A stretch of 64,000 nt of DNA, from IMG/VR virus record IMGVR_UViG_3300027852_001421; one strand, 5' to 3'. The first letter of the stretch is position 1. Each line of letters starts with the position of its first letter. A model generated the notes under the pieces. That model saw only the letters and a list, made by a program, of their open reading frames with translations, was not told the DNA's origin and made no database searches. Origin of the DNA: a virus (lineage: Duplodnaviria > Heunggongvirae > Uroviricota > Caudoviricetes). Position numbers and translations under genes: made by a program. Below, one piece after another: positions 19,117-33,969 of the stretch.

Positions 19117-19971
19117 TCAGACGGACCGCTTCATATGCTTGTACTTCCGATCAAAGCTCGCGAGCTTCGGCAAGTCCATGGCGGCTGGCGACGCGCGCAT
19201 CTTGCCATGATCCAGGAACAGGCTGACAGCACGATCCCGATTGATGATCTTCATCGATTTGTCGTCCTGACGTGGCCCCCAGCCGACCCGCAGCAGATAG
19301 TTCAGCATGGCATCCGGATCGACACCGTCATCGCGGTAGCCCAGAAGACTTGCCGCGGCATCGCGTTTGGACATCTTCTTGCCGTCCATGGTAATCAAGC
19401 CGACATGAGCGAAGTCCGGCATAGGTGCCCCTAAGGCGCTGTAGAGCCCAGCATGGCGGAAGGTATTTGTCAGATGATCCATGCCGCGGATCACGAGGTT
19501 CACTCCAAGATCGATGTCATCGACCACGGAGGCGAAATGATAGACCGGCATGCCGTCGGCTTTGATCAGAACCTGATCACGCGCCAGATCATGCGCCTTG
19601 GCGCTGGGCAGCTGATCGCCGGAAATCAGATCGCTCCATGGCGCTGCCGCCCCACCCTTCATCAACACGGCGCCATTGTCGGCACGCATGGCGAGCCCGG
19701 CATCGAGGAGCTTGGCGGCAGCGGCATCATAGATGTCGCGCCGGTGCGACTGACGGTAGACGGCATCGGGCGCAAGCCCCAACCAATCGAGGCAGTCATG
19801 AATGACGTCGATCGAGGCGTGGTTGTTGCGCGAAAGATCCGTGTCATCGATGCGCAGGATGAAGCGACCGCCACTGGCGCGTGCAGACAACCAGTTGAAA
19901 TAGGCGGTGCGGGCGGTGCCGATGTGAAAGTCGCCTGTTGGCGATGGGGCAACGCGGGTCGTATAGGTCAC
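19117..19971 (-). CDS. gluQ: glutamyl-Q tRNA(Asp) synthetase (truncated GluRS paralog)
   Basis: Class I HIGH region PSPTGDFHIGTARTA and KMSKR motif. About 284 aa, lacking the anticodon-binding domain. GTG start with AAAGGA 9 nt upstream gives an N-terminus colinear with E. coli GluQRS. Confidence 0.8.
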   Translation of the reverse strand: MTYTTRVAPSPTGDFHIGTARTAYFNWLSARASGGRFILRIDDTDLSRNNHASIDVIHDCLDWLGLAPDAVYRQSHRRDIYDAAAAKLLDAGLAMRADNGAVLMKGGAAAPWSDLISGDQLPSAKAHDLARDQVLIKADGMPVYHFASVVDDIDLGVNLVIRGMDHLTNTFRHAGLYSALGAPMPDFAHVGLITMDGKKMSKRDAAASLLGYRDDGVDPDAMLNYLLRVGWGPRQDDKSMKIINRDRAVSLFLDHGKMRASPAAMDLPKLASFDRKYKHMKRSV

Positions 19972-19984
19972 TGTGAAAATCCTT

Positions 19985-20335
19985 TCAGACGCCAATTCGA
20001 TGTGCGTGAGCCTGCAGGTCTTCCGGGTCCGCGATGCGCGAGACGCAGAATGCCATTGGCTCATTGAGAGAAGCCGCAACCAGATCAGGAAACTCGGCTT
20101 TGAGGGTTCGGTATGAGGCCAGGGCTTCTTCATCGAAATACGATCCTGTGTGGACCGATGTGGGCAAGTAATCTCCGGATGTCGGATCAAAGAGGCGTTG
20201 TGCATCATGAGTTGATCTCTGTCGCGTTTGAAGAACCTTGCTACGCATCCATGCAGCTGCTTCACCCCGATCGGGGAAGCGGGGCAGCTCCGGATCTGGG
20301 GAACGTCGTTTGAAACGGCTCAACATGGACAACAT
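19985..20335 (-). CDS. hypothetical protein (116 aa)
   Basis: ORF directly upstream of gluQ on the same strand. Confidence 0.45.
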   Translation of the reverse strand: MLSMLSRFKRRSPDPELPRFPDRGEAAAWMRSKVLQTRQRSTHDAQRLFDPTSGDYLPTSVHTGSYFDEEALASYRTLKAEFPDLVAASLNEPMAFCVSRIADPEDLQAHAHRIGV

Positions 20336-20340
20336 CTTGG

Positions 20341-20416
20341 TCTCCTAAATTTGGCATCCGCAGCGAGGATCGAACTCGCGTCTTCGGGGTGAGGTCCCGG
20401 TATTCTGACCAATTGA
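20341..20416 (-). tRNA. tRNA, probable tRNA-Glu (anticodon CUC) with atypical features
   Basis: Cloverleaf drawn by hand. Acceptor GTCCGCA/TGCGGAT (G1-U72 wobble), D arm GTTC-AATTGGTCA-GAAT, anticodon arm CCGGG-ACCTCAC-CCCGA (C at position 33, one C-A mismatch), T arm GCGAG-TTCGATC-CTCGC, discriminator G, encoded CCA. Total 76 nt. Confidence 0.6.
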
Positions 20417-20429
20417 ACTATGCGGACGT

Positions 20430-20505
20430 GGTGGTGATTTTGGCATCTCCTACGAGTCTCGAACTCGTTTCTGCTGCTTGAAAGGCGACTGTTCTAACCG
20501 GGTGA
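20430..20505 (-). tRNA. tRNA-Glu (anticodon UUC)
   Basis: Acceptor GTCTCCT/AGGAGAT (again G1-U72), D arm GTTC-ACCCGGTTA-GAAC, anticodon arm GTCGC-CTTTCAA-GCAGC, T arm ACGAG-TTCGAGA-CTCGT, G73, CCA. Same architecture as the neighbouring tRNA, 13 nt apart. Confidence 0.6.
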
Positions 20506-20525
20506 ACTAAGGAGACGTAAGGGCA

Positions 20526-21945: not shown

Positions 21946-23223
21946 TCAAGGACAGGGGGCCTCCACGTCTAGGGCTGTCCGTAGGGTGATCTCAACATTC
22001 TCGCGGCAGGGCCCTTCTGATTTGATCTTGAGATCATGCCCGCAAAGACCTGCGATGACCTCGGCGAGGTTCTCGCTGCTAATCTCTGAGACAAAAGGCC
22101 CCTCCCCCATATCCATCACCGAGATCTCGATATTATCGCCCAGCTGATCAAGGCAAGTGACCCCCAGGCCATGATCAATGTCTACGCCCTGCCCTGCGCT
22201 GCGCGCGAGATCGGCCGAGATGATGCGGTCCAACTCTCTGAGATCCAAGGGCGCGTAGCGGATGGCGTCCTGCCATTCGTTTGGCCTGTTGGTGCGGTCG
22301 ATCACCTCGGTGCCAGGCAAGGGTGTCGTTCCGCGGTCGAGCGGGAACGGCCCTGCCCCGTGCCGCGTGGCATAGGCGCGGGTCATGTAGATGATCTCTA
22401 GATCCGTGATCCCGGCGTTTCGGGCGATTTCCACCATGTTCTTGGCGCCCGTATGAGACCGCGTCACATGAGGAAAGACCCCGAGATCCATATCGAGCTG
22501 CAAACCTTGAGCGCCTTCGAAAACCACCGCATCGCGATCGCACAAGGCATCATCCGACATGAGGGAGACAACAGCCCTATATCTGTGCAGATCTTTTGCA
22601 AACCGGCCAGTGAAGCCCGATACATCGCTCAGAACAGGCTTCAGGTGATCTGGGATATCTGTAAGCCCCAAGGCTGCCAGCCGCGCGGGCACCCAGACCG
22701 AGGCGATCTCTCTCAGGCGTGACATCAGGTCTGGCGAGGTAAGGTCCTGCATGGTGAGAGAAGGGCCATTCTCTTGGCGCTCGAGGGTTTCCCCAAACCC
22801 CAGGCCGCAAGAGCCATGTTTATCACCACCGCGGGCAATTTCAGCGGCTTGATTGATGGCCATGTCCCAAGGTGTGGTGATTGGCGAGCGTGGATCGGCT
22901 GTGATTTGCAGATCTCGAACGCCTTTGCGCGCGAGATCCTCCAGCTCCGAAAAGAAGACCATTGGATGGGAGACAAAGAAGCGCGACAGATGCGTGGCCG
23001 CGCCCCGGAAGGATCCGGAGCCGATATGGTGAAATACATGGTGGCGACCGTCGCCCATGGTGACCCCGTGGCCCGCCTGTGCGCCGCCATTGGAGCGCAC
23101 CACGGTCACTTGGCGCCCCTGCTCCACAAGCTGTGCTGTAAGTGCGTCTGTGCCCAGCCCCTTACCTTCATCACCCCAGCCGGCGCCGATGATCCCATAG
23201 ACTTTGCGGATGTCATTTCCCAT
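21946..23223 (-). CDS. adenylosuccinate synthetase (PurA)-family protein, divergent paralog
   Basis: IIGAGWGDEGKGLGTD (PurA P-loop GDEGKGK with the last K replaced by L), GGAQAGHGV (the GGNNAGHT region), VVFEGAQGLQLDMDLGVFPHVTRSHT (the FEGAQG..D.D.GTYP.VTSS region). Confidence 0.7.
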   Translation of the reverse strand: MGNDIRKVYGIIGAGWGDEGKGLGTDALTAQLVEQGRQVTVVRSNGGAQAGHGVTMGDGRHHVFHHIGSGSFRGAATHLSRFFVSHPMVFFSELEDLARKGVRDLQITADPRSPITTPWDMAINQAAEIARGGDKHGSCGLGFGETLERQENGPSLTMQDLTSPDLMSRLREIASVWVPARLAALGLTDIPDHLKPVLSDVSGFTGRFAKDLHRYRAVVSLMSDDALCDRDAVVFEGAQGLQLDMDLGVFPHVTRSHTGAKNMVEIARNAGITDLEIIYMTRAYATRHGAGPFPLDRGTTPLPGTEVIDRTNRPNEWQDAIRYAPLDLRELDRIISADLARSAGQGVDIDHGLGVTCLDQLGDNIEISVMDMGEGPFVSEISSENLAEVIAGLCGHDLKIKSEGPCRENVEITLRTALDVEAPCP

Positions 23224-23749
23224 TCAGGACCTCACTCTCTTGAGTGTCATGATGGACCGTATTTTCCTGCTCGGGAGACAGCCGTGCGCAGAGATCCGCG
23301 ATGTAGTCGGTAAACCAAGCGGCGGCCTCAGGTGTCGCATGCTCAGCGACCGCCATGGGCTTCACGCGACCATCAGGGAAAGTGAAATCGACATGGACAG
23401 CCACGCGCTCCCCACGCTCGGGAGAGGCGAAGCGTTTGTCGCTCCCTTCAGTGATCCGAACCGCAGCTGGATAGCCGGCCGTGATCCCATGCATCACCAT
23501 GCCCAGAGCCCCATCATCAAAATAACGCAACTTGTCGAAGTCCTTGTCGAAGAAAGCCCCATAGGGCTTTAGCGTGTTGGCCAGTTCCCCCAGGCCGTAC
23601 ATCCCAAGCTTCATTTCCATTTCGCGGAAGGTCTTACGCATGAGGGGGAAGTGGCGCTCGGGGATGCGCAGAACGATTTCGGCCTCGCTGTTTTGCGGAG
23701 TCTCGCTCAAGGCAGGAGATGCAGCACCGCAGGTAGGGCATTTTGTCAT
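23213..23749 (-). CDS. hypothetical protein with N-terminal CPxC zinc-ribbon-like motif
   Basis: MTKCPTCGAAS at the N-terminus. It overlaps the PurA-like gene start by 11 nt, suggesting an operon. Confidence 0.5.
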   Translation of the reverse strand: MTKCPTCGAASPALSETPQNSEAEIVLRIPERHFPLMRKTFREMEMKLGMYGLGELANTLKPYGAFFDKDFDKLRYFDDGALGMVMHGITAGYPAAVRITEGSDKRFASPERGERVAVHVDFTFPDGRVKPMAVAEHATPEAAAWFTDYIADLCARLSPEQENTVHHDTQESEVLNGK

Positions 23750-23803
23750 AGGTCTTCGCTCCGGGGGAATTGGGCCTGATAGGCTTTATTCAGGCTCTTC
23801 TGG

Positions 23804-24766
23804 TTAGGGCGTGGGCATCTCATCTTCCGTGGTCAGGTCACTGTCGGGAGATGTAGGAATACTGAGGCGTATATCTGTGGTTGAAATACGCCAGTCCGCT
23901 TTACCCGCTGCAATCCGAACCAGATGGTCCCCCTCAAAGCTTGCGGTGATGTCTTCAGGCGTCACACCAGTGAGCTCTTCCAAGGACCGCGCTTCAATCC
24001 AGCTATCTTCCATGGAAGCGATGAAGGTATCCGTTGCCTTGTTCTGGATTTTCTCATCTACAAAAAGAGACCAGGCTTCTTGGCCCCCAAACTCGAGAAT
24101 GAGATATTGGGTGCCGTCCTTGCGGACCTTCATTGAAGCTTCCTTGCAGAACAGACTATATACGAGCGCCGCGTTAGCCCCCTGTCTTGCCTTCCTCGGG
24201 CTAAGATCGAGATCGAGGAAGGCATCGAAAGACTTCTGGTAGTGCTGTGAAAATTTGGTTTCGAAATCCCGTAGGACGCGCGCGGCGGCCTCAATCTCGG
24301 GTGGGGTGATGTCGCCATTCCGGGCATCTTCCAGGCCGCGGTCGTAGAATGCGGCATAGCGCTCCATGGAGGACTGATTGCGCATTGTGGAGAGGTCATC
24401 CACAAGAGCCGCGCCCTCCGGTGGCATCTGGCTGCCCGCGGCAGCCCCCGTAAGATATTCTGCCTGGGCCGCTTGATATTCACCGAGGACTTGGCCCGGA
24501 TCATCAAGATGGTGAGGCATGATCGGAAGTAAGCTCATTGCATATTGCAGCCCTTGGACAACGGCGATGCCACCGATACCCCAGACGGAGTACATTCTGG
24601 ACCACTTCGCTTTTGCGGTGCCTTTAGCGGTTTCGAGAGCTAGGGTCCCGATCCTTTGATACAGCGGCGTATCAGTGCTGGTCAGGCGGTCCTTGAAAGA
24701 TCGAAGTTCTTCTTTCTTCTTCTCAATGCTGGCCCGTGTTGCCGTTTTGATGCGCTTCATCTGCAT
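23804..24766 (-). CDS. hypothetical protein with one internal TM segment; C-terminus DLTTEDEMPTP
   Basis: 320-aa ORF with a hydrophobic segment WGIGGIAVVQGLQYAMSLL. Confidence 0.5.
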   Translation of the reverse strand: MQMKRIKTATRASIEKKKEELRSFKDRLTSTDTPLYQRIGTLALETAKGTAKAKWSRMYSVWGIGGIAVVQGLQYAMSLLPIMPHHLDDPGQVLGEYQAAQAEYLTGAAAGSQMPPEGAALVDDLSTMRNQSSMERYAAFYDRGLEDARNGDITPPEIEAAARVLRDFETKFSQHYQKSFDAFLDLDLSPRKARQGANAALVYSLFCKEASMKVRKDGTQYLILEFGGQEAWSLFVDEKIQNKATDTFIASMEDSWIEARSLEELTGVTPEDITASFEGDHLVRIAAGKADWRISTTDIRLSIPTSPDSDLTTEDEMPTP

Positions 24767-24780
24767 GCCTTTCTGTCAGT

Positions 24781-25194
24781 TCAGTCGAGCTCGATCTCAT
24801 CTTCAGGCTCGTCTTCGGGCTCATATCTCTGGATCCAATCCTCGATCGTGAGGACATGGGCCTCACAGGCAGCGGCGCCCAGGGGTCCAAAGGCGCCATG
24901 ACAGCCGCTCGGGCGCTGCGCTGTTTTGTGGAACACGGCGGCCCCATATACCTGAAGTTCTTCATCGGCCATCTCAGAAACTGCAGGGTCAGGCTTGATG
25001 TCCTGAGCCTTGATTTTTCCCATGACCACGGACCAGAGCGCTTCGGTCATCGAAGGTGCAACCCATTCGTCGGTCAACTCCAGCGATCCATCGAGAAGGC
25101 CGCCGCCGCGCTGAGAAAGTTCCCGGAGAACCAGGGCTGGTACGGAGTTGAAATCCTCTTCTGTGAAGGCTTCAGGGTGTTTGGGATCAGGCAT
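24781..25194 (-). CDS. small acidic protein; C-terminus YEPEDEPEDEIELD
   Basis: 137-aa ORF, 14 nt upstream of the next gene. Confidence 0.5.
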   Translation of the reverse strand: MPDPKHPEAFTEEDFNSVPALVLRELSQRGGGLLDGSLELTDEWVAPSMTEALWSVVMGKIKAQDIKPDPAVSEMADEELQVYGAAVFHKTAQRPSGCHGAFGPLGAAACEAHVLTIEDWIQRYEPEDEPEDEIELD

Positions 25195-25305
25195 GATTGG
25201 CTCCGGTCTAGGTAAGATACAACCCTACAAGAGGGCTGTGAAAAATCTTACAGTGATGCTCTTTCAAGGACGTAATGTCCGGGCGTTTCCACCCGGACCA
25301 CTGAC

Positions 25306-26229
25306 TCACAGCCGCTGAACACCGCGGGACTGGCCAGTCTTGGCCGGCACGCCCTTCAGGGCATTGGCCACGGTCAGCGCAGTCGAGCCAGACCAGCTCG
25401 CAGCCACATCGGAGGCCAGGGCCCCTTCGGTTACCTGGATCAGCGACACAACTGTCTCGGCCAGGGCATTGACGTCCTCGAGCTGAATGGTGCGCTCGGG
25501 CAGGATCTGGCGCCAGGTAGTGAGGACGTGATCGCGCGACTGGCCCCAGTTGCAGTAGCCCTCGTTGACCAGTGCGATGTGGAAGACCTCCCAATCGCGT
25601 TGAACCATACGGATGATGTCGGCCGCCGAGAGATCCGCCTCGACCGAGATGCCCAAAACACGCTCAATCTCTGCTTTGGTCATGCCATCGTGGATCGGCT
25701 CGTCGCCAATGGTGAAGAGGTAGCCCTTGCGGCCGCGTTTCTCGATCGCATCGGCGCGGACCTTGGTTGCGGCGAAAAGATGGGCCGACGAGTAGGATTC
25801 ACCGCCGTTTCCGCCCCCTGCCCCTTCAAGCCAGAGCTTGCGGGCCTGTTCAGCGACGCGAATATCGGCTTCGAACTGGGTTACCTGCAATGGCGCCCGG
25901 TCGGTTTTCGCATCCCCCACGCCCATGATCATGATATGCGGATCAGTGACCGGCTTGCGGTCATAGATCTGGGTCGCCAGAGTGTTGAGCCCGTCGCGCA
26001 TCAGCTTCTCAGCAATCATGCCCATGGAGCCGGTCACATCCGAGGCGAGGATGATCGGGGTCGACAGCGGGTTGTCCGCGGAGTCCCGGCTTTCACGGAA
26101 TTCGATCTTTGCAGGGTTGAATTCGTCTTTCATGTTGCGCGAGGTGAAAATCTGGCTTTGCGATTTACCCGCGGTGTTCTGTGCTGTGTAGCCGGCCCAA
26201 GCCGAGCTGTCCCAACGTCCGTCTCCCAT
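25306..26229 (-). CDS. von Willebrand factor A (VWA) domain protein
   Basis: AAGGAG 7 nt before ATG. MIDAS-like ILASDVTGSMG (DxTxS), then the downstream hydrophobic beta-strand pattern of a VWA fold. Confidence 0.65.
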   Translation of the reverse strand: MGDGRWDSSAWAGYTAQNTAGKSQSQIFTSRNMKDEFNPAKIEFRESRDSADNPLSTPIILASDVTGSMGMIAEKLMRDGLNTLATQIYDRKPVTDPHIMIMGVGDAKTDRAPLQVTQFEADIRVAEQARKLWLEGAGGGNGGESYSSAHLFAATKVRADAIEKRGRKGYLFTIGDEPIHDGMTKAEIERVLGISVEADLSAADIIRMVQRDWEVFHIALVNEGYCNWGQSRDHVLTTWRQILPERTIQLEDVNALAETVVSLIQVTEGALASDVAASWSGSTALTVANALKGVPAKTGQSRGVQRL

Positions 26230-26284
26230 TTCGATACTCCTTCATATGGTGTTACCCATGGTATAAATGATTAAGTTGCATTGT

Positions 26285-26315
26285 ACAAGTTGTAATGTGC
26301 AACTTAATAATTACG
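26285..26315. promoter_or_regulatory. palindromic candidate operator AAGTTGCA-N-TGCAACTT (a related copy at 27362-27392 is not listed separately)
   Basis: aagttgcattgtacaagttgtaatgtgcaacttaat downstream of the J-domain gene, and taacttgtatcatgcaacttaatatt between the J-domain gene and the divergent NrtR-like gene. Confidence 0.35.
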
Positions 26316-27324
26316 CGTATACACCAACCCCCGCACCGCTATATTTTGCAAAGCGCCGGACACCCCAGGCATCGGTCAAAGCCTTCTGCCATTTGGCGTA
26401 ATCGGCAATGCCATCTTGGCCTGGCGGGAGCATCAGCCAGTTTCGGATGGGCTCCGGAAGATTTAAGCTGGCGAGCTTGCTCAAAGAAGGTGCCCCTAAG
26501 GCCTCGCAGGTGGTGCGCCGGATTAATTCAAGATCCAAAGATGGATCGACTGTCACGCCCGGAACCGCGAGCTGGGGTGAAAGCTGCAGCGTCCGGTTGG
26601 GCAGCATTGCAGGGCGCATGCCGGCTTCAGTGGCAAAGCCCCAGCCAGCGACCAGGCGCACAGCATGGGTTTCGGGGTCGACCATGACAGTGTCAGGGCT
26701 AATGGCGCCATGCACCAAGCCTGCCCAAGTCAACCAGGCTGCGATGTTCATTAGGCCAGAGCAGAGCCAGGCCGCGTGTTTTGGTGCCATCGGGCCGTCG
26801 CTTGCAATGAGGTCTGCCAGAAGCACGTCTCCCTGCCGGCGTTCATGGGTGATCAAGATCCCGCCGCCCTGCAGATCGATCCGCGATTTGTGGCGGGGTA
26901 GAAACATCCGCATCTGCTTTTCCATCTTTGCATCGGCAAATTTGAAACCGGCCAGGGTGCGCAGCTCGGCTTCGGCGATATCCGCGAGATCGGCCTCGAA
27001 GATCTGGCCGATACTGACTGGACCAACCATCAAAAGACCAATGTCTGTCTCATGGCGCGACAGGTACCGCATGGCCTGGCGCTTGCCGGTGGTGGTGGTG
27101 AAGATCTGCTGATCGATCGGCCGCCGCGGTGCGCCGCGGGCGGCGTCCCGTAGGGTGACGAGCTTGGCAAAGACCTCATGAGCCTTCGGGTCCGGGCAGT
27201 GGTCCGGGTGCCAGCGTGCGGCGAGTGTGCGAAAAGACTTTTTGTCAGCCTTCTCATCTCCAGAGAAAATCTTGGCTGCTTCACTGAGACCCATGTTGAG
27301 AATGCGTTCTGCTGAAAGGTTCAT
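26311..27324 (-). CDS. J-domain (DnaJ-like) protein with uncharacterised C-terminal domain
   Basis: N-terminal KKSFRTLAARWHPDHCPD (HPD tripeptide with flanking J-domain helices). TGGAG before ATG 27324. Confidence 0.65.
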   Translation of the reverse strand: MNLSAERILNMGLSEAAKIFSGDEKADKKSFRTLAARWHPDHCPDPKAHEVFAKLVTLRDAARGAPRRPIDQQIFTTTTGKRQAMRYLSRHETDIGLLMVGPVSIGQIFEADLADIAEAELRTLAGFKFADAKMEKQMRMFLPRHKSRIDLQGGGILITHERRQGDVLLADLIASDGPMAPKHAAWLCSGLMNIAAWLTWAGLVHGAISPDTVMVDPETHAVRLVAGWGFATEAGMRPAMLPNRTLQLSPQLAVPGVTVDPSLDLELIRRTTCEALGAPSLSKLASLNLPEPIRNWLMLPPGQDGIADYAKWQKALTDAWGVRRFAKYSGAGVGVYA

Positions 27325-27459
27325 AATGGGCTCCAATATCACTGTTGTAGTTAAACTAAGTAAATAACTTGTATCATGCAACTTAATATTCTATATCTGA
27401 TTAAACGATGTAATTTAGGGGGCTTGGATAGAACCGGCCGCCTCTCGGCAGGAGACAAC

Positions 27460-28155
27460 ATGACAGAGACGCCATTACCAAAGGATGCCGCCTATAACCC
27501 GATTTGTACCGTTGATGCTGTTCTTCTGACCATTGAGGGCGATTGCCTAAAGGTGCTTTTACACCGTCGGCCTAAGGCGCCTTTTGAGGGGTGTTGGGCG
27601 CTTGTTGGCGGCTACATTCACCGCGATGAGGATCAGGGCGTTCTGGAGGCTGTGCAGCGCATCCTACGTGACAAGGCAGGACTGCCTGCGCTGCACCTTG
27701 AACAGCTGCAGACCTACTCCGGTCCCAAGCGGGATCCACGCGGCTGGTCTGTCTCAGTAGCCCATCTCGGTTTAGTGCCGCGCGCGCAACTTGAGCTTCC
27801 TCAAGACCCTGATGTTTTGCTGACAGATGTGGAAGAACTGCCCGAACTGGCTTTCGACCACCGAACCATACTTGATGATGCGGTGGCACGCCTGCGCGGA
27901 AAGAGCGCCTATTCCACTCTGCCAGCGTCATTCCTCGATGCGCTCTTCACTCTGCCCGAACTGCACCGTGCCTATGAGATTGTCCTGGGGGTGAAGCTCG
28001 ATCCAAGTTCGTTCCGACGCAAAGCCCTCGACCGCGGCATGATTGAAGATAGCGGTGAGATGCGCACCGATGGGAGCCGGCGTCCAGCAAAACTATACCG
28101 TCTTTGCGCGCCAGCCCAGACATTCGATCAGACCTTCGCGCCGCAGCAGTGGTGA
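27460..28155 (+). CDS. NrtR-like regulator (degenerate Nudix domain plus C-terminal winged helix)
   Basis: AGGAGACAAC-ATG. Nudix-box remnant GGYIHRDEDQGVLEAVQRILRDKAGL with the catalytic RE/EE positions substituted (RI, DK), as in non-catalytic NrtR proteins. A C-terminal region of about 80 aa is consistent with a wHTH. Confidence 0.6.
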   Translation: MTETPLPKDAAYNPICTVDAVLLTIEGDCLKVLLHRRPKAPFEGCWALVGGYIHRDEDQGVLEAVQRILRDKAGLPALHLEQLQTYSGPKRDPRGWSVSVAHLGLVPRAQLELPQDPDVLLTDVEELPELAFDHRTILDDAVARLRGKSAYSTLPASFLDALFTLPELHRAYEIVLGVKLDPSSFRRKALDRGMIEDSGEMRTDGSRRPAKLYRLCAPAQTFDQTFAPQQW

Positions 28156-28157
28156 CC

Positions 28158-29507
28158 ATGCCGGGGATTGAGGGTTATAAGATCTATCCAACGCCGGGCG
28201 ACCTGTCGCCCGTGCTGCGCCAATATTGCATGGAGGCCGGGAACAGCGGCATCTTTATCTTCCACCACCGGTTCTGCGTCTGCCCCTTTCCTCTGGCATT
28301 CCCGCTGCCGCTCGAAGATCTGCTTCATGAGCGTGAAAAGGCTGCCATGGCAGCACTCGCGGCCGGAGACACGTGGTCCTACCTGCAGCGCAACGAAAAG
28401 CCTTACCGGCCTGAAGCCCTGATGGAGCTGGTCAATGAAGGCTATTTCTCCAGCAAGCCAGAGGATTACTGGCGGCTCGTGCGCAAGGTTTGGGTGGATA
28501 GCGATCTGCCCGAAGATGACCCCTACTGGGCGGAAATGCTCGACGTAGAGATTGGGGGTATTCAGGCCATGATGGGCAAAGAGGATAGCGCCGCCTTGGA
28601 AGCGATGCCCGCGATCATTCAAGTCTGGCGCGGTGTTGAGGGTTTGGATGCGGCAGCGGCGCAGGAGGCTGTGACATCTGGCCATAGCTGGAGCATTGAC
28701 CAGAAGATCGCAGAGCGCTTTGCGAAAAGCTTTGCACGGAGTACCGGTGGCGCCTGGGTCGCAAGCGCCCAGATCCCGAAAACTCAGGTCGTTGCTTATC
28801 TGACCAATCGCGGCGAGGCGGAGATCATCCTTCGGCCGCGCGATATTGCCGATCTGAAGTTTAACCTGACCTCTCTCGGGTCGAAGGTGCAGGGGTTTTC
28901 AGACCTTCGGGATAGACTGCCCAAGAAACAGCATAACGGAGAGACCATGACCTTCACTGACAAGATCAAAGCGCACCTTGAGAGCTTCAAGAACGACGAA
29001 GAGGGCCACAAGCTCTTCCCACTCGCGGATTGGCGCTATGAAGTCGATAACGATGACACCAGCCTGGGCTATGACGATTGGCTTTCGGACAAGATCGACT
29101 TCGAAGTCGATGATATTGTGGATACCGTCGACCGCTTTATCTATCGCGGCTGCAAAGCCACCGACGGCGAGATCTCCGAGATTGAGTTCAACCGCGATGT
29201 GGTCGACACCTTCTCGACCCTGCGGATCATCGATGACGAAGCTGTTGATCGCGCCAATGGGTTTTTGAACGAGAAGCCTGAAAAGCCCGTCTTCGGTGAA
29301 AGCTTCGGCGCTGTACCCTCTGATGTTGCCGCAGATCTTTCGCGGATCGCGCATCTTGGCATGGTCTTTTTTGAAGGCCGCTGTAGCGTAGAAAAGCTGA
29401 TCTCTGTTATGGCCGAGACAGCCACAAAATATGACATGGAGGGTGACGGCGCGGAGGCCGTCCGCGCGCGGGCCGGTCATACCCCGGACGAAACCCCGCA
29501 ACCTTGA
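28158..29507 (+). CDS. ORFan protein translationally coupled to the NrtR-like gene; weak R-S-E ADP-ribosyltransferase-like motif set
   Basis: ATG 3 nt after the NrtR stop. N-terminal half contains VWRGVEG, then SGHSWSIDQ (STS-like), then NRGEAEIIL (E-x-E). C-terminal half is very acidic. Confidence 0.45.
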   Translation: MPGIEGYKIYPTPGDLSPVLRQYCMEAGNSGIFIFHHRFCVCPFPLAFPLPLEDLLHEREKAAMAALAAGDTWSYLQRNEKPYRPEALMELVNEGYFSSKPEDYWRLVRKVWVDSDLPEDDPYWAEMLDVEIGGIQAMMGKEDSAALEAMPAIIQVWRGVEGLDAAAAQEAVTSGHSWSIDQKIAERFAKSFARSTGGAWVASAQIPKTQVVAYLTNRGEAEIILRPRDIADLKFNLTSLGSKVQGFSDLRDRLPKKQHNGETMTFTDKIKAHLESFKNDEEGHKLFPLADWRYEVDNDDTSLGYDDWLSDKIDFEVDDIVDTVDRFIYRGCKATDGEISEIEFNRDVVDTFSTLRIIDDEAVDRANGFLNEKPEKPVFGESFGAVPSDVAADLSRIAHLGMVFFEGRCSVEKLISVMAETATKYDMEGDGAEAVRARAGHTPDETPQP

Positions 29508-31373: not shown

Positions 31374-31955
31374 TCACTTGTCTAGGTAGACCATGATGGT
31401 GCCCTCATCCGGGCAGGCAGCACCAAGATCCGCAGGTGTCGGTCGCCCATTGATGACGGTGGCATTACGACCTTCCGATACGGTCATGTTGCGGACGCTC
31501 AACCCTGAGGCTTCGGAAATTGACATCATCTGCTCGCCGACCCGCAGGCAGACGGATTTGGGGATGTTGACCAACTCCAGCCTCAATCCAGCAGGATCGG
31601 TTGGCATGTTGCTACCGATCCAAAATTCACCCCCCCAGGCATGCTCAAGAATTTCATTCGTCTCATCGAAATGGAAGGCGCTCCCCTCTGTCAGGAAACC
31701 CGCCTTGTGCAGGATGAGAGGGATGTTCGCGCCATCGAGGTCCGAGAGGTCCCCTTCCTGCGACAGGTTCAACGTTGCGGGGAGCATGGCCGCCATGCCG
31801 CGGGTGGTTGCATCAATCTTGGAACTCTCTTGAGCTTGTTGAAAAAAGACGATGCCGCCTACGATCACTGCCAAGGCGATGACGAGGTAGAGCACCCCTT
31901 CAATGAGGGAAATCCCGCGCCGGCGCGCAGAGGTGCGTAGGGAGATAAATTGCAT
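31374..31955 (-). CDS. prepilin-type N-terminal cleavage/methylation domain protein (type IV pilin or pseudopilin-like), orphan
   Basis: MQFISLRTSARRRG-ISLIEGVLYLVIALAVIVGGIVFF. Basic leader, G at -1 and E at +5, then a hydrophobic helix: a class III signal peptide. Confidence 0.6.
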   Translation of the reverse strand: MQFISLRTSARRRGISLIEGVLYLVIALAVIVGGIVFFQQAQESSKIDATTRGMAAMLPATLNLSQEGDLSDLDGANIPLILHKAGFLTEGSAFHFDETNEILEHAWGGEFWIGSNMPTDPAGLRLELVNIPKSVCLRVGEQMMSISEASGLSVRNMTVSEGRNATVINGRPTPADLGAACPDEGTIMVYLDK

Positions 31956-32161: not shown

Positions 32162-32716
32162 TCAACCGGCGTGCAGCTCATTATTTCCAAAGATATTTGG
32201 CGATAAATACAGCCCGCGGCGCCAGAACCAATGCGGGGGTTTATCATAGGTGAACGTGGGGATAGTCTCCCACGAGCCCCTGGCAACAACCTCCTTCATG
32301 ACATCCCGTGCAGCTGTCTCGAAGTGCTGACATCGCGTAATCTCCTCATCGATTCTGAAGGTAACGTCATAGGCCCAGACCTGAGACGCATAGCGCAATG
32401 TCACAGCAGTTTCCGAGTGGGCTTGAACGGAACCATCAGGGTAAAATTCGCATGACACCTTCATAGGTCGGAACGTGTCATGCTGAGTATGCTCAACCCA
32501 GGCCACCACTTTAATGTCGCCAACAGCCCTTACCTTGATGCGCTCTTCTGCCAAGAGCTTTTCGCCGGGTGTGGTCGCCGCCAGGAAGACGTCGGCTGCC
32601 CTATTCTTTGGGGATCGGACCTCGATCCCAGCGAACCACATGATGCCATAGACGACCGCGATATAGGCCATCACGCGCACGGTCACCTCCCAGATGTTCA
32701 AACGTTTTTCGCTCAT
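32162..32716 (-). CDS. membrane-anchored protein, paralog of 32768..33301
   Basis: N-terminal TM helix. Shared C-terminal blocks (KV.C.F..DG.V.A..E, RC.HFE.AA, W..IP.F.Y) with the upstream gene. Confidence 0.55.
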   Translation of the reverse strand: MSEKRLNIWEVTVRVMAYIAVVYGIMWFAGIEVRSPKNRAADVFLAATTPGEKLLAEERIKVRAVGDIKVVAWVEHTQHDTFRPMKVSCEFYPDGSVQAHSETAVTLRYASQVWAYDVTFRIDEEITRCQHFETAARDVMKEVVARGSWETIPTFTYDKPPHWFWRRGLYLSPNIFGNNELHAG

Positions 32717-32767: not shown

Positions 32768-33301
32768 TCAGTGGTATTTGAATTCCGGGATGGATTTCCA
32801 AAACCCATCCTTCACCGCACTCTCCATTCCGCGTTGAGCGGCCATTTCAAAATGCGCACAGCGTGCGATCGCCTCGTCGATCTTGCCGGTCACTTTGTAG
32901 TTCGAGAGATTGGTGCTCCAACGCCCGCTCACAAGAACTTCGGCATAGGCATCGACTCCGCCATCCCGGCTGAAAACGCAGGTGACCTTGGTCCGACGTG
33001 TGTCGCGATATTTTCGGCCGCTCACCATAGCCACGATGGTCTTGTCCTCGCCGCGGCCGGTCAAGATCATCCCTTCCTCGAGCAAACCGCCGCTGTCTCG
33101 GGTGGCATTCAGGAAATTCTCAGCAGCTTTGGTCCGAGATGTGCGCACATCAGCCCCAATTGCCCATGCGAAACCGATCGTGATTGCAAAGACCGCACCC
33201 AGAACGAAGCAGGCGCCAATGATGCTGGTAATGAAGTCTTTCACAGGCGTGTTTTGCTCAGGGAGGCCCCGCTCGAGATCTTGTTTGTCTGTCGATGACA
33301 T
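32768..33301 (-). CDS. membrane-anchored protein, paralog of 32162..32716
   Basis: Start MSSTDKQ (alternative ATG 18 nt upstream at 33319). Same domain organisation as the downstream paralog. Confidence 0.55.
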   Translation of the reverse strand: MSSTDKQDLERGLPEQNTPVKDFITSIIGACFVLGAVFAITIGFAWAIGADVRTSRTKAAENFLNATRDSGGLLEEGMILTGRGEDKTIVAMVSGRKYRDTRRTKVTCVFSRDGGVDAYAEVLVSGRWSTNLSNYKVTGKIDEAIARCAHFEMAAQRGMESAVKDGFWKSIPEFKYH

Positions 33302-33403
33302 TGGCTTTTCTCTTCTCATGGATATTTGACAGCGCCCTGTGGTGCGGTCTTCTTGGCGATCAGCTATGCCAGGAAATCTGGCGCGCAATCCTAAAAGAGA
33401 AGG

Positions 33404-33527
33404 CTCTCCCAGAGATTTGCGGAGCAAACTCGTCGGAGCAACGCGCATCGCTGAAGCGATACGCTGGCTCGCACTTCCTTCGGAAATGCTGCCGCCTGTC
33501 ACTCCCTGACGGGAGTGACTATGCGAA
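33404..33527 (+). repeat. approximately 125-nt intergenic element, copy 1 of 2 (other copy 57469..57593), containing palindrome GCGCATCGC-N4-GCGAT(A/G)CGC and ending in hairpin plus TATGCGAAAA
   Basis: About 85% identity to 57469..57593 over the core ctctcccagagattt...cgctggctc(g/a)cac....ctgtcac. Confidence 0.55.
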
Positions 33528-33969
33528 AATAAAATATGATGATGTATTGTGTTTGCGAAAATCACTATCTATCTAGGTGGTATCAGAGAGGCCCCGGAGC
33601 TCGTAAGAAGAGTCCCGGTCTTTAAAACCGGTTGTCTGGGGGCGGAGCCCAGCGGGGTCACCATCTGAACCGTACTGCGAAAAATGTGGATTGACCTCTT
33701 TACAGTAGATCAAGCATCCCTATATTCAAATCACGATGAACAGAACCCCCCTGCCCCATGCAGGTCACTTGAAAGGACAGATCATGAGCAAGGATTAAAC
33801 CAGCGTCTCACTCCGCACCAAAGACGACACGGCGCCTCCTGGCGACGATGCATATCGTGGGTTTACCCGCGAGCTGAAGACCACCGCTTCACCGTCGAGC
33901 TCCGCTCAGCAGGTTGAAGGCCTCGGTGATGATCTTCGCCTCTATTCCATTCTCAGAACAGATATCACC

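What the first reader, a model, noticed from the sequence alone, without database searches (positions are those of the whole stretch)
27362..29507. Non-catalytic Nudix-wHTH (NrtR-like) regulator translationally coupled to an ORFan carrying R / S-x-S / E-x-E motifs reminiscent of ADP-ribosyltransferases
The 27460..28155 product has a Nudix fold whose catalytic box is degenerate (REUxEE positions read RI..DK) plus a C-terminal winged-helix-like region, the architecture of ADP-ribose-sensing NrtR repressors. Its stop is 3 nt from the ATG of a 449-aa ORFan whose N-terminal half shows, in order, VWRGVEG, SGHSWSID and NRGEAEIIL, the arginine, STS and ExE elements of R-S-E-class ADP-ribosyltransferases; the spacing is shorter than in classical toxins. 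Known NrtR regulons are NAD biosynthesis or salvage genes, not an ORFan like this. A regulator that senses ADP-ribose, coupled to a protein that could generate it, would be a coherent but undescribed module. A palindromic AAGTTGCA...TGCAACTT-type site (27362-27392, with a related copy at 26285-26315) sits in the divergent promoter region shared with the J-domain gene and could be its operator.
Basis: inference. Interest (0 to 1): 0.7.

Follow-up and report, generated by a model that had tools for sequence, protein, structure and literature searches.

The report
ADP-ribose repressor coupled to ART-fold enzyme
A repressor of the ADP-ribose-sensing NrtR type is co-transcribed with a protein from a large, unnamed family that has the fold and catalytic motifs of ADP-ribosyltransferases, suggesting an NAD-consuming enzyme switched on by an NAD breakdown product; no activity has been tested.

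Summary
27460-28155 encodes an NrtR-family Nudix/winged-helix repressor with a degenerate Nudix box. Its TGA lies 2 nt before the ATG of a 449-aa ORF.

That ORF is not an ORFan:
- Residues 1-~247 belong to a family with about 2,900 cluster representatives (a count that includes C-module hits). The family has no Pfam model. It occurs in phages, giant polyvalent-type proteins and cellular loci.
- Y/W-R-G, G-x-S-W-[ST] and R-G-E-x-E are near-invariant across the family.
- Residues 264-449 are a separate all-alpha module. It is a separate gene in sister loci.

The palindrome refines to TTGYA-N3-TRCAA. It occurs three times in 64 kb (0.19 expected), all in this cluster, and at equivalent positions in distant orthologous loci.

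This NrtR subfamily belongs to a conserved module: a PurA-like paralog, a 307-aa protein and a J-domain/kinase-like protein. None of 80 related NrtR loci and none of 80 viral loci carries the ART gene. It sits beside NrtR only in three divergence groups, so it looks like accessory cargo.

Catalysis, ligand and target are untested. Verdict: new variant of known kinds, interest 0.6.

The parts
27366..27384 (.). Operator O1: 19-bp palindrome AACTTGTA-TCA-TGCAACTT, in the divergent region between the J-domain gene and nrtR. By eye it overlaps a -35/spacer-like stretch upstream of a conserved TATAT.
   Evidence: Sequence. Motif search. Conserved in L001-L003. Equivalent sites upstream of nrtR in L015, L036, L046, L075 and L079.
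26273..26305 (.). Operators O2 and O3: two overlapping 19-bp palindromes (AAGTTGCA-TTG-TACAAGTT and AAGTTGTA-ATG-TGCAACTT), 14 bp apart start to start. They lie in the 81-bp gap between the J-domain gene and the 307-aa gene.
   Evidence: (D2, I10). Conserved in L001 and L002. Equivalent sites in L011 and L012.
27460..28155 (+). nrtR: a 231-aa Nudix-fold plus NrtR-type winged-helix repressor with a degenerate Nudix box. A conserved AGGAGA ribosome-binding site lies just upstream.
   Evidence: Pfam and NCBIfam. Match to S. oneidensis NrtR. RBS conservation.
28158..29507 (+). 449-aa ORF translationally coupled to nrtR (TGA-CC-ATG). It is a fusion of an ART-fold domain and an unrelated all-alpha module.
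28158..28898 (+). ART-fold domain (aa 1-~247). Key residues: R158 (28629-28631), S177/W178/S179 (28686-28694), E220 and E222 (28815-28823). Further conserved residues in the N-terminal half are H37, R84, W105, W112, E116 and W124.
28947..29507 (+). C-terminal module (aa 264-449): acidic, all-alpha, with the motif LFP-x2-DW-x-YEV-x-N-x-DT-x-LGY-x2-WL. The internal ATG at 28947 keeps a GGAG 7 nt upstream. It is a separate gene in sister loci.
26311..27327 (-). 338-aa J-domain (HPD present) plus protein-kinase-like protein, divergent from nrtR. Core module member.
   Evidence: The orthologue in L009 carries a Pfam DnaJ hit. Co-occurrence.
25306..26229 (-). 307-aa conserved protein (phrog_2971) with an invariant D-x-T-G-S. 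It may be vWA/MIDAS-like, but this is unverified. Core module member.
   Evidence: No Pfam or PDB sequence hit.
23213..25194 (-). Three small genes (137, 320 and 178 aa) between the 307-aa gene and the PurA-like gene. They are lineage-restricted; the 178-aa protein also occurs in L009.
21946..23223 (-). Divergent adenylosuccinate-synthetase paralog (425 aa). It is not housekeeping purA. Core module member.
   Evidence: Pfam 153 bits over profile positions 2-275 of 416. 132 bits against the purA equivalog cut-off of 402. Adjacent to the 307-aa gene in 14 of 80 NrtR loci and in viral-collection contigs.

Best explanation
An ADP-ribose-type sensor/repressor is wired to a probable ADP-ribosyltransferase.

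Shown in silico:
- nrtR encodes a non-catalytic Nudix-wHTH repressor.
- Three 19-bp palindromes (core TTGYA-N3-TRCAA) sit in front of nrtR and in front of the 307-aa gene.
- The downstream gene is translationally coupled. Its first ~247 residues have an ART fold with a conserved R / S-x-[ST] / E-x-E constellation.
- The whole thing is embedded in a conserved module: PurA-like paralog, 307-aa protein, J-domain/kinase-like protein and NrtR.

Inferred:
- An NrtR dimer occupies the palindromes. It represses its own nrtR-ART operon, the divergent J-domain gene and the 307-aa...PurA-like transcription unit.
- ADP-ribose, or a close NAD-breakdown product, releases it. Such a product could appear when NAD is cleaved or proteins are ADP-ribosylated, for example during phage attack or toxin activity.
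- The ART-fold protein then uses NAD+ to mono-ADP-ribosylate a target. The E-x-E form of the motif favours arginine in a protein.
- Any NAD-glycohydrolase side reaction, or removal of the modification, would yield more ADP-ribose and reinforce induction.
- The ART gene is accessory cargo in a variable slot downstream of nrtR, not the core of the module.
- The fused C-terminal module is an independent accessory protein of unknown role.
- The setting suggests a conflict function (defence or counter-defence) rather than NAD housekeeping. It has variable neighbours, sits next to Wadjet in one relative, and has homologues in phages and giant polyvalent-type proteins.
For: NrtR identity.

Coupling. 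The arrangement is the same in L001-L003, L006 and L009/L010.

ART fold and motifs:
- Conservation in 144 and 127 sequences.
- The AF2 model has pLDDT 93.6 and pTM 0.87. Its order of elements is strand (R158), helix, strand (S-W-S), helix, strand, strand, strand (E-x-E), strand.
- The best Foldseek hits are TreX, ParT and cholera toxin.
- hhalign places family R158-G159, S177 and A185/F188 on the invariant R73-G74, S99 and A107/F110 of T4 ModA/ModB.

Operator:
- 3 sites against 0.19 expected.
- Footprints in close relatives and distant ones.

Recurrent association of the ART gene with this NrtR module, at 35-43% ART identity: L006, L009 and L096.

Core module without the ART gene.

Precedents:
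- NrtR proteins release DNA on binding ADP-ribose (PMC2330246).
- An ART-superfamily NADase toxin derepresses an NrtR regulon in vivo (PMC11535050).
- Nudix-HTH regulators are predicted to gate ADP-ribose-processing conflict systems (PMC9503650).
Against: - No sequence-level match to any curated ART family or solved ART.
- Convergence of R, S and E on a pocket could not be measured.
- R158 is Q or K in 13 of 144 members.
- The phage homologue LeBron gp117 is only mildly toxic when overexpressed in M. smegmatis (PMC13148394). It is not a potent NADase there.
- No ADP-ribosylglycohydrolase or macro-domain partner is in the window.
- Most loci with this NrtR subfamily lack the ART gene, so the link could be opportunistic.
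- The operator differs from the 21-bp GT-N7-AC core reported for most NrtR groups.
- The ligand could be something other than ADP-ribose. The related AraR binds arabinose.
Confidence: 0.55

Rival explanations
1. The ART-fold protein does not modify proteins. It is an NAD+ glycohydrolase or phosphorylase (like RES/NatT, Tse6 or TNT). Its job would be to deplete NAD+ or make an ADP-ribose-derived small molecule, with NrtR closing a feedback loop on that product.
Against: The conserved triad is the transferase-type R-S-ExE. RES proteins have replaced the S and E (PMC9503650). LeBron gp117 is only mildly toxic on overexpression, which is unlike strong NADases. No antitoxin or immunity partner is consistently adjacent.
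Confidence: 0.15
2. The ART-fold protein acts on nucleic acid, especially RNA or tRNA (2'-phosphotransferase-like, DarT-like or RNAylation-like), rather than on protein arginine.
Confidence: 0.12
3. There is no functional link. The ART-fold gene (plus the fused C-module) is selfish or accessory cargo inserted behind nrtR. The real NrtR regulon is the PurA-like / 307-aa / J-domain module, and the ART protein works independently of ADP-ribose sensing.
For: None of 80 related NrtR genome loci and none of 80 viral-collection loci has the ART gene, while 14 and about 11 of them respectively have the PurA-like and 307-aa genes. ART-domain homologues occur in unrelated contexts: a type I-E CRISPR-Cas locus, phages and giant proteins. 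The slot downstream of nrtR holds other cargo in L096.
Against: The ART gene has ended up directly behind or within 1.6 kb of this NrtR subfamily in three divergence groups (35-43% ART identity). In two of them the genes overlap or are separated by only 2-3 nt. That is hard to get by chance. Co-transcription makes it NrtR-regulated whatever its origin.
Confidence: 0.13
4. The domain is a catalytically dead ART-like NAD+/ADP-ribose-binding module (pseudoenzyme, sensor or decoy).
Against: Invariant E-x-E and near-invariant S and R across about 140 divergent sequences are the signature of retained catalysis. Dead ARTs typically lose them.
Confidence: 0.05

Closest known systems
NrtR repressors of NAD metabolism (S. 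oneidensis SO1979 / PDB 3gz5, Synechocystis Slr1690, P. aeruginosa NrtR)
   Same: Same two-domain architecture, with full-length homology (E 1e-35). The Nudix box is degenerate as in the non-catalytic S. oneidensis protein. There is a palindromic site in its own upstream region.
   Different: Scores 154 bits against the NCBIfam equivalog cut-off of 400. The operator is a 19-bp TTGYA-N3-TRCAA, not the 21-bp GT-N7-AC core. The neighbours are a PurA-like paralog, a 307-aa protein, a J-domain/kinase-like protein and an ART-fold gene instead of nad, pnc or prs genes.
ARG-centred host systems regulated by Nudix-HTH or WYL factors (Iyer, Burroughs, Anantharaman, Aravind 2022, PMC9503650 section 3.8)
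   Same: An NrtR-like one-component repressor gates ADP-ribose-related conflict genes. The accessory genes are variable. One relative (L009) has an ADP-ribosylglycohydrolase 4 kb away and sits beside Wadjet.
   Different: Those systems were defined by the absence of a coupled ART and the presence of an ARG plus a phosphatase. The window has an ART-fold gene, no ARG and no phosphatase identified. DnaJ and adenylosuccinate-synthetase-like components are not mentioned in that paper.
R-S-E clade mono-ADP-ribosyltransferases (T4 Alt/ModA/ModB, C3, VIP2/iota, cholera/LT, Certhrax, Vis)
   Different: No detectable sequence-family membership. The R-to-S spacing is short (19 residues, against 26 in ModB). 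There is a conserved W in S-W-[ST], and a conserved R two residues before E-x-E. The conserved 150-residue N-terminal region has its own invariant H, R, W and E residues.
ART domains of phage/conjugative polyvalent proteins (Tox-ART-HYD2 clade; Iyer et al. 2017, PMC5512222)
   Same: The present domain also occurs embedded in 2,000-3,700-aa proteins, alongside Zeta-toxin, pentapeptide-repeat and multiple HTH regions.
   Different: The described polyvalent ARTs have an H-Y-D active site. [quoted passage not shown]
NatR-NatT (RES toxin) and NrtR in P. aeruginosa (PMC11535050)
   Same: An ART-superfamily NAD-consuming enzyme whose activity is read out by NrtR derepression.
   Different: There the toxin and NrtR are unlinked, and NrtR induces NAD salvage as compensation. 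Here the ART-fold gene is in the NrtR operon itself.

Membership tests
NrtR family (Nudix-related transcriptional regulators) | N-terminal Nudix-fold domain fused to a C-terminal NrtR-type winged-helix DNA-binding domain | tested here: met
   Pfam NUDIX 3.1e-8 (aa 19-138) and NrtR_WHD 4.8e-20 (aa 157-215). Full-length match to S. oneidensis NrtR 3gz5 at E 1e-35.
NrtR family (Nudix-related transcriptional regulators) | Score above the curated equivalog threshold for the ADPR-responsive repressor | tested here: not met
   NF050029 gives 153.8 bits against a cut-off of 400. It is a family member, not an equivalog of the reference protein.
NrtR family (Nudix-related transcriptional regulators) | Palindromic operator upstream of its own or target genes | tested here: met
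   Three TTGYA-N3-TRCAA palindromes against 0.19 expected. Conserved in close and distant orthologous loci. Binding itself was not tested.
NrtR family (Nudix-related transcriptional regulators) | Common 21-bp palindrome with a GT-N7-AC core (most groups, Rodionov 2008) | tested here: not met
   The sites are 19 bp with a TTGYA-N3-TRCAA core. The paper itself notes divergent motifs in some lineages.
NrtR family (Nudix-related transcriptional regulators) | ADP-ribose binding that releases DNA | not testable with these tools
   Inferred only from homology to S. oneidensis NrtR and the literature.
NrtR family (Nudix-related transcriptional regulators) | Regulon made of NAD biosynthesis or salvage genes | tested here: not met
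   All three sites in the 64-kb window lie within the nrtR / J-domain / 307-aa cluster. The neighbouring genes are not nad, pnc or prs genes.
ADP-ribosyltransferase superfamily, R-S-E clade | Split beta-sheet ART fold | tested here: met
   [not shown]
ADP-ribosyltransferase superfamily, R-S-E clade | Conserved Arg on core strand 1, S-x-[ST] on strand 2 and [QE]-x-E before strand 5 | tested here: met
   R158 127/144; S177 133/144; position 179 is S or T in 144/144; E220 and E222 144/144. The motifs fall on strands 153-162, 177-179 and 222-224 of the model.
ADP-ribosyltransferase superfamily, R-S-E clade | The three motifs converge on one NAD+ pocket | not testable with these tools
   [not shown]
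ADP-ribosyltransferase superfamily, R-S-E clade | Sequence-profile relationship to a characterised R-S-E family | tested here: inconclusive
   hhalign against a T4 ModA/ModB profile gives Prob 25%, E 7.6e-4. It is motif-consistent over R-G / S / A..F but does not reach E-x-E. No Pfam ART model hits any of 127 members. No PDB sequence hit.
ADP-ribosyltransferase superfamily, R-S-E clade | NAD+-dependent ADP-ribosyl transfer | not testable with these tools
   No biochemical data. The only experimental datum for a homologue is mild cytotoxicity of LeBron gp117.
Polyvalent-protein ART (Tox-ART-HYD2) | H-Y-D active-site configuration | tested here: not met
   The family has R-S-E at the equivalent strands. 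The definition comes from PMC5512222.
KptA/Tpt1 RNA 2'-phosphotransferase | Membership of the 2'-phosphotransferase sequence family | tested here: not met
   [not shown]
Toxin-immunity / toxin-antitoxin pair (ART + downstream C-module) | Obligate pairing of the two genes | tested here: not met
   ART homologues lack the C-module in L007-L010, L096 and phages. C-module homologues occur without an ART gene.
ARG-centred Nudix/WYL-regulated systems (Iyer 2022) | ADP-ribosylglycohydrolase core with no coupled ART | tested here: not met
   No ARG homologue in the window, and an ART-fold gene is present. The relative L009 does carry an ARG.

The most novel reading that the evidence does not exclude
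A previously unnamed R-S-E ADP-ribosyltransferase family is used by phages, by giant injected polyvalent proteins and by cells. In one cellular lineage it serves as an ADP-ribose-gated effector. NrtR senses NAD breakdown or ADP-ribosylation during attack and unleashes the enzyme, together with an undescribed conflict module (PurA-like, 307-aa and J-domain-kinase proteins). This would give a self-reinforcing ADP-ribosylation switch.
Probability: 0.3. Interest if true: 0.8.

Novelty: new variant of a known kind. Interest (0 to 1): 0.6.

Why it matters
If the enzyme is active, a family with roughly 2,900 sequence clusters would gain a function. The family is present in mycobacteriophages, roseophages, giant polyvalent proteins and a CRISPR-Cas locus, and it is currently annotated everywhere as 'hypothetical'. 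It would be an R-S-E ADP-ribosyltransferase that current profile libraries miss.

The operon gives a simple, testable regulatory logic: an NAD-consuming transferase placed under a repressor that reads an NAD breakdown product. That logic has been proposed for ADP-ribose-removing systems but not for a transferase.

The finding also exposes a conserved four-gene module (NrtR, J-domain/kinase-like, 307-aa protein, PurA-like paralog) in alpha-, beta- and gamma-proteobacteria. I found no description of it. NrtR is evidently doing something there other than NAD housekeeping.

Tried and rejected
- Sequence searches of the 449-aa protein, the 127-sequence family profile and a core-only profile against PDB sequences gave nothing or one spurious hit.
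- Pfam on the protein and on all 127 family members gave no ART or any other consistent family. NCBIfam and PADLOC gave nothing for it.
- Foldseek against PDB gave no significant hit. Only the ranking was suggestive.
- hhalign against single ModA and ModB sequences gave probabilities of 1.5-4.7%. With a small profile it rose to 25%. I treat this as weak support only.
- I considered the toxin-immunity reading of ART plus C-module and rejected it, because each occurs without the other.
- The search for related loci with the broad ART alignments failed for lack of a conserved stretch. The close-relative alignment found nothing in viral contigs.
- Megablast of the locus against plasmids gave no match.
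- The sigma-70 and terminator scan of the region was uninformative. The promoter overlap with O1 is my reading by eye only.
- I first called the 307-aa protein 'vWA' from its D-x-T-G-S motif. Pfam on 16 orthologues and a PDB profile search gave no support, so the label stays tentative.
- Housekeeping purA was rejected for 21946-23223.
- Source names for homologues were all 'hypothetical protein' or absent.
- The supplement of PMC9503650 is not held. I therefore could not check whether this family is listed there under another name.
Full report
**What is at the coordinates**

The ORF map shows 27460-28155(+) encoding 231 aa and 28158-29507(+) encoding 449 aa. The junction reads ...CAGTGG TGA CC ATG CCG.... 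The two genes are therefore separated by 2 nt, and the second has no good Shine-Dalgarno of its own. Translational coupling is plausible. The same arrangement, a 3-nt gap or overlapping codons, is kept in all relatives that carry both genes.

**The regulator**

- The first product hits Pfam NUDIX, NrtR_WHD and AraR_C.
- It hits the NCBIfam 'ADPR responsive transcriptional repressor' model at 154 bits, below the equivalog cut-off of 400.
- It aligns over its full length with the crystallised S. oneidensis NrtR (3gz5, E 1e-35). It also aligns with Bacteroides AraR and the wHTH of NadQ.
- Its Nudix box has I, D and K where the catalytic glutamates of REUxEE should be, much like the non-catalytic S. 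oneidensis protein.

**The 449-aa protein is not an ORFan and is two modules**

- A word-indexed search found near-full-length relatives (84% and 68% identity), 263-aa proteins matching only the N-terminal 57%, and 183-aa proteins matching only the C-terminal 41%.
- In sister loci L002 and L003 these are two genes that overlap by ATGA. In the window and in Sulfitobacter sp. 1A13353 (L001) a one-base frame difference fuses them. The internal ATG (28947) and its GGAG are retained.
- PHROGs already has the two halves as families of unknown function.
- An exhaustive profile search found 2,933 cluster representatives at E<=1e-3 and 1,003 at E<=1e-10. Most are 220-260-aa stand-alone proteins matching the N-terminal module. 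Seven proteins of 1,960-3,740 aa carry it as an internal domain.
- The three giants I scanned have no Pfam model over that domain. Two of them also contain Zeta-toxin, pentapeptide repeats or arrays of HTH domains; the third has only weak HTH-type hits. One lies among other giant ORFs on a 70-kb contig. This is the architecture of phage or conjugative 'polyvalent' proteins (PMC5512222).
- tblastn finds the domain in Ruegeria phage RpAliso, about 100 mycobacteriophages (for example LeBron gp117) and Gordonia phages. All are annotated hypothetical.

**Is the N-terminal module an ADP-ribosyltransferase?**

- [YWF]-R158-G159, with G invariant and R in 127/144;
- G175-x-S177-W178-[ST]179;
- R218-G-E220-x-E222, with both E invariant (also 127 sequences).

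*Structure.* AlphaFold2 with that alignment gives pLDDT 93.6 and pTM 0.87. The C-terminal 100 residues run strand (R158), helix, strand (S-W-S), helix, strand, strand, strand (just after E-x-E), strand. That is the canonical order of the ART core.

*Fold search.*
- Sequence identities are 15-18% to R-S-E enzymes, against 6-9% to most PARPs listed (PARP10 is 13%).
- Foldseek finds nothing significant. Its best-ranked hits are TreX, ParT and cholera toxin.

*Profile comparison.* Against a small profile of T4 ModA/ModB, hhalign gives only 25% probability (E 7.6e-4). It does align family R158-G159, S177 and A185/F188 with the invariant R73-G74, S99 and A107/F110 of the Mod proteins.

*Negatives.*
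- No Pfam model hits any of 127 members.
- PDB sequence searches are empty.
- I could not measure three-dimensional convergence of the residues.

*Conclusion.* An ART fold with an R-S-E-type catalytic constellation is well supported. Enzymatic activity is inferred. The E-x-E form suggests arginine specificity; this rests on established knowledge of C3, iota and cholera-type enzymes and was not tested here.

The family differs from the ART described in polyvalent proteins, which is H-Y-D.

The only experimental datum I found comes from a genome-wide overexpression screen. LeBron gp117 (245 aa, 'no known function') gave mild growth inhibition in M. smegmatis, score 1 of 3 (PMC13148394). That argues against a potent NADase toxin.

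**The C-terminal module**

**The palindrome**

- There is one copy at 27366-27384, 76 nt upstream of the nrtR ATG.
- There are two overlapping copies at 26273-26305, in the 81-bp gap between the J-domain gene and the 307-aa gene.
- The core occurs three times in 64 kb against 0.19 expected, and none of 100 shuffles reaches three.
- Alignment of the intergenic regions of L001-L003 shows these sites as islands of conservation. In the relatives the nrtR-proximal site is the better palindrome, AACTTGCA-TTA-TGCAACTT.
- Loci whose NrtR is only 47-59% identical carry the same kind of site at the same two positions: L011, L012, L015, L036 and L079. L046 and L075 carry it upstream of nrtR, and L009 has a TACA-N3-TGTA variant.
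- This is good comparative evidence for an NrtR operator and for autoregulation. Binding itself is untested.
- The motif differs from the 21-bp GT-N7-AC core typical of most NrtR groups (PMC2330246).

**Wider context: the conserved unit is not NrtR-ART**

*Genome scan.*
- A scan with an NrtR alignment returned 80 loci at 44-59% identity. None contains the ART domain.
- 14 of the 80 contain homologues of both the window's 307-aa protein and its adenylosuccinate-synthetase-like protein, next to each other.
- 10 of the 80 also have the J-domain/kinase-like protein, and 9 have all three. In the loci whose ORFs I inspected, the J-domain gene is divergent from nrtR.
- In the viral-contig collection, NrtR relatives (35-42% identity) on 100-570-kb contigs are followed by the same 307-aa and PurA-like genes, again without the ART gene.

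*The module components.*
- The PurA-like gene (21946-23223) scores 132 bits against the purA equivalog cut-off of 402. It is a dedicated paralog, not housekeeping purA.
- The J-domain protein has an HPD motif and weak kinase-like matches.
- The 307-aa protein has an invariant D-x-T-G-S that could be a MIDAS-like motif. I could not confirm a vWA fold.

*Where the ART gene joins the module.*
- It lies directly behind nrtR in the window lineage (L001-L003), in L006 (ART 43% identical) and in L009/L010 (35%). In L009/L010 an ADP-ribosylglycohydrolase lies 4 kb away and Wadjet is adjacent.
- In L096 (about 37%) it lies 1.6 kb downstream, behind other small cargo genes.
- Other ART homologues of similar divergence sit elsewhere. 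One is between cas3 and cse1 of a type I-E CRISPR-Cas locus.

I read this as a variable cargo slot downstream of nrtR that has captured, or retained, the ART gene in three divergence groups. That is more than chance, but it is not an obligate pair.

**Mechanism proposed and how sure**

| Step | My confidence | Basis |
|---|---|---|
| NrtR represses via the three palindromes | about 0.75 | Inference from comparative data |
| The ligand is ADP-ribose or a close derivative | about 0.5 | Homology to S. oneidensis NrtR; Bacteroides AraR shows the family can switch ligands |
| The ART-fold protein is an active NAD-dependent transferase | about 0.6 | Fold plus invariant catalytic motif |
| It serves a conflict function and feeds ADP-ribose back onto NrtR | about 0.3-0.4 | Context only |

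The published precedents are partial. ADP-ribose releases NrtR from DNA. An ART-superfamily NADase derepresses an NrtR regulon in P. aeruginosa. Nudix-HTH factors were predicted to gate ARG-centred anti-ADP-ribosylation systems, which were explicitly defined as lacking an ART. I found no description of an NrtR-ART operon or of the PurA-like / J-domain module. The library is incomplete and the supplement of PMC9503650 was not available.

**Verdict**

This is a new, unannotated family within the known ART superfamily, placed in a new regulatory arrangement with a known type of sensor. I class it as a new variant of known kinds and worth experimental follow-up. I keep the score moderate because every functional step is still computational.

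Noticed in passing
window 21946-27327 (- strand) plus nrtR; also L011, L012, L015, L031, L036, L037, L054, L067, L079, L080, L086, L104-L122: A conserved module (divergent PurA-like paralog, 307-aa protein, J-domain/kinase-like protein, NrtR) recurs in alpha-, beta- and gamma-proteobacterial genomes and on large contigs of the viral collection. I found no description of it.
   Followed up: partly
window 19117-20516: A GluRS-like gene lies directly beside two tRNA-Glu genes (CTC and TTC anticodons), at the edge of the cluster of unannotated genes. It scores 252 bits against the gltX cut-off of 290. The gene called in relatives is only 284 aa, roughly the length of the catalytic domain.
   Followed up: partly
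[not shown]
   Followed up: no
L009 685-1563 and 9392-12759: In one relative the NrtR-ART module lies 4 kb from an ADP-ribosylglycohydrolase and directly beside a Wadjet (JetA/B/C) system.
   Followed up: partly
window 28935-28949: The fused ORF keeps the GGAG and ATG of the formerly separate downstream gene. The C-terminal module may therefore also be translated on its own.
   Followed up: partly
L091, L094: Stand-alone homologues of the acidic all-alpha C-terminal module occur without any ART gene. The L094 one lies near N6/N4 methyltransferase and ResIII/SNF2 helicase genes, which looks like a mobile element or anti-restriction neighbourhood. The L091 one lies near two-component regulator genes.
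   Followed up: partly
L097 1-22432: A 2,143-aa protein carrying the ART domain is flanked by ORFs of more than 3,800, 2,025 and more than 900 aa on a 70-kb contig. This is a run of giant polyvalent-type genes.
   Followed up: no
L005 3926-4663 (LeBron gp117): In the published LeBron screen gene 117 was mildly cytotoxic. It also gave reporter expression without inducer, which the authors take as a possible internal promoter.
   Followed up: no
window 31374-31955, 32162-32716 and 32768-33565: A pilin-like protein (weak PilS N-terminal hit, with a prepilin-like hydrophobic N-terminus) is followed by two paralogous genes (39% identity over 141 aa) of unknown function.
   Followed up: no
window 23804-24766: The 320-aa protein inside the cluster has a weak hit (E 0.003) to the PADLOC candidate family PDC-M34B.
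   Followed up: no
window aa 1-150 of the 449-aa protein (28158-28607): The region before the ART core has its own near-invariant residues (H37, E80-R81-P-Y-R84, W105, W112-x-D114-x-E116, W124). This hints at a second functional site or a target-binding surface.
   Followed up: no
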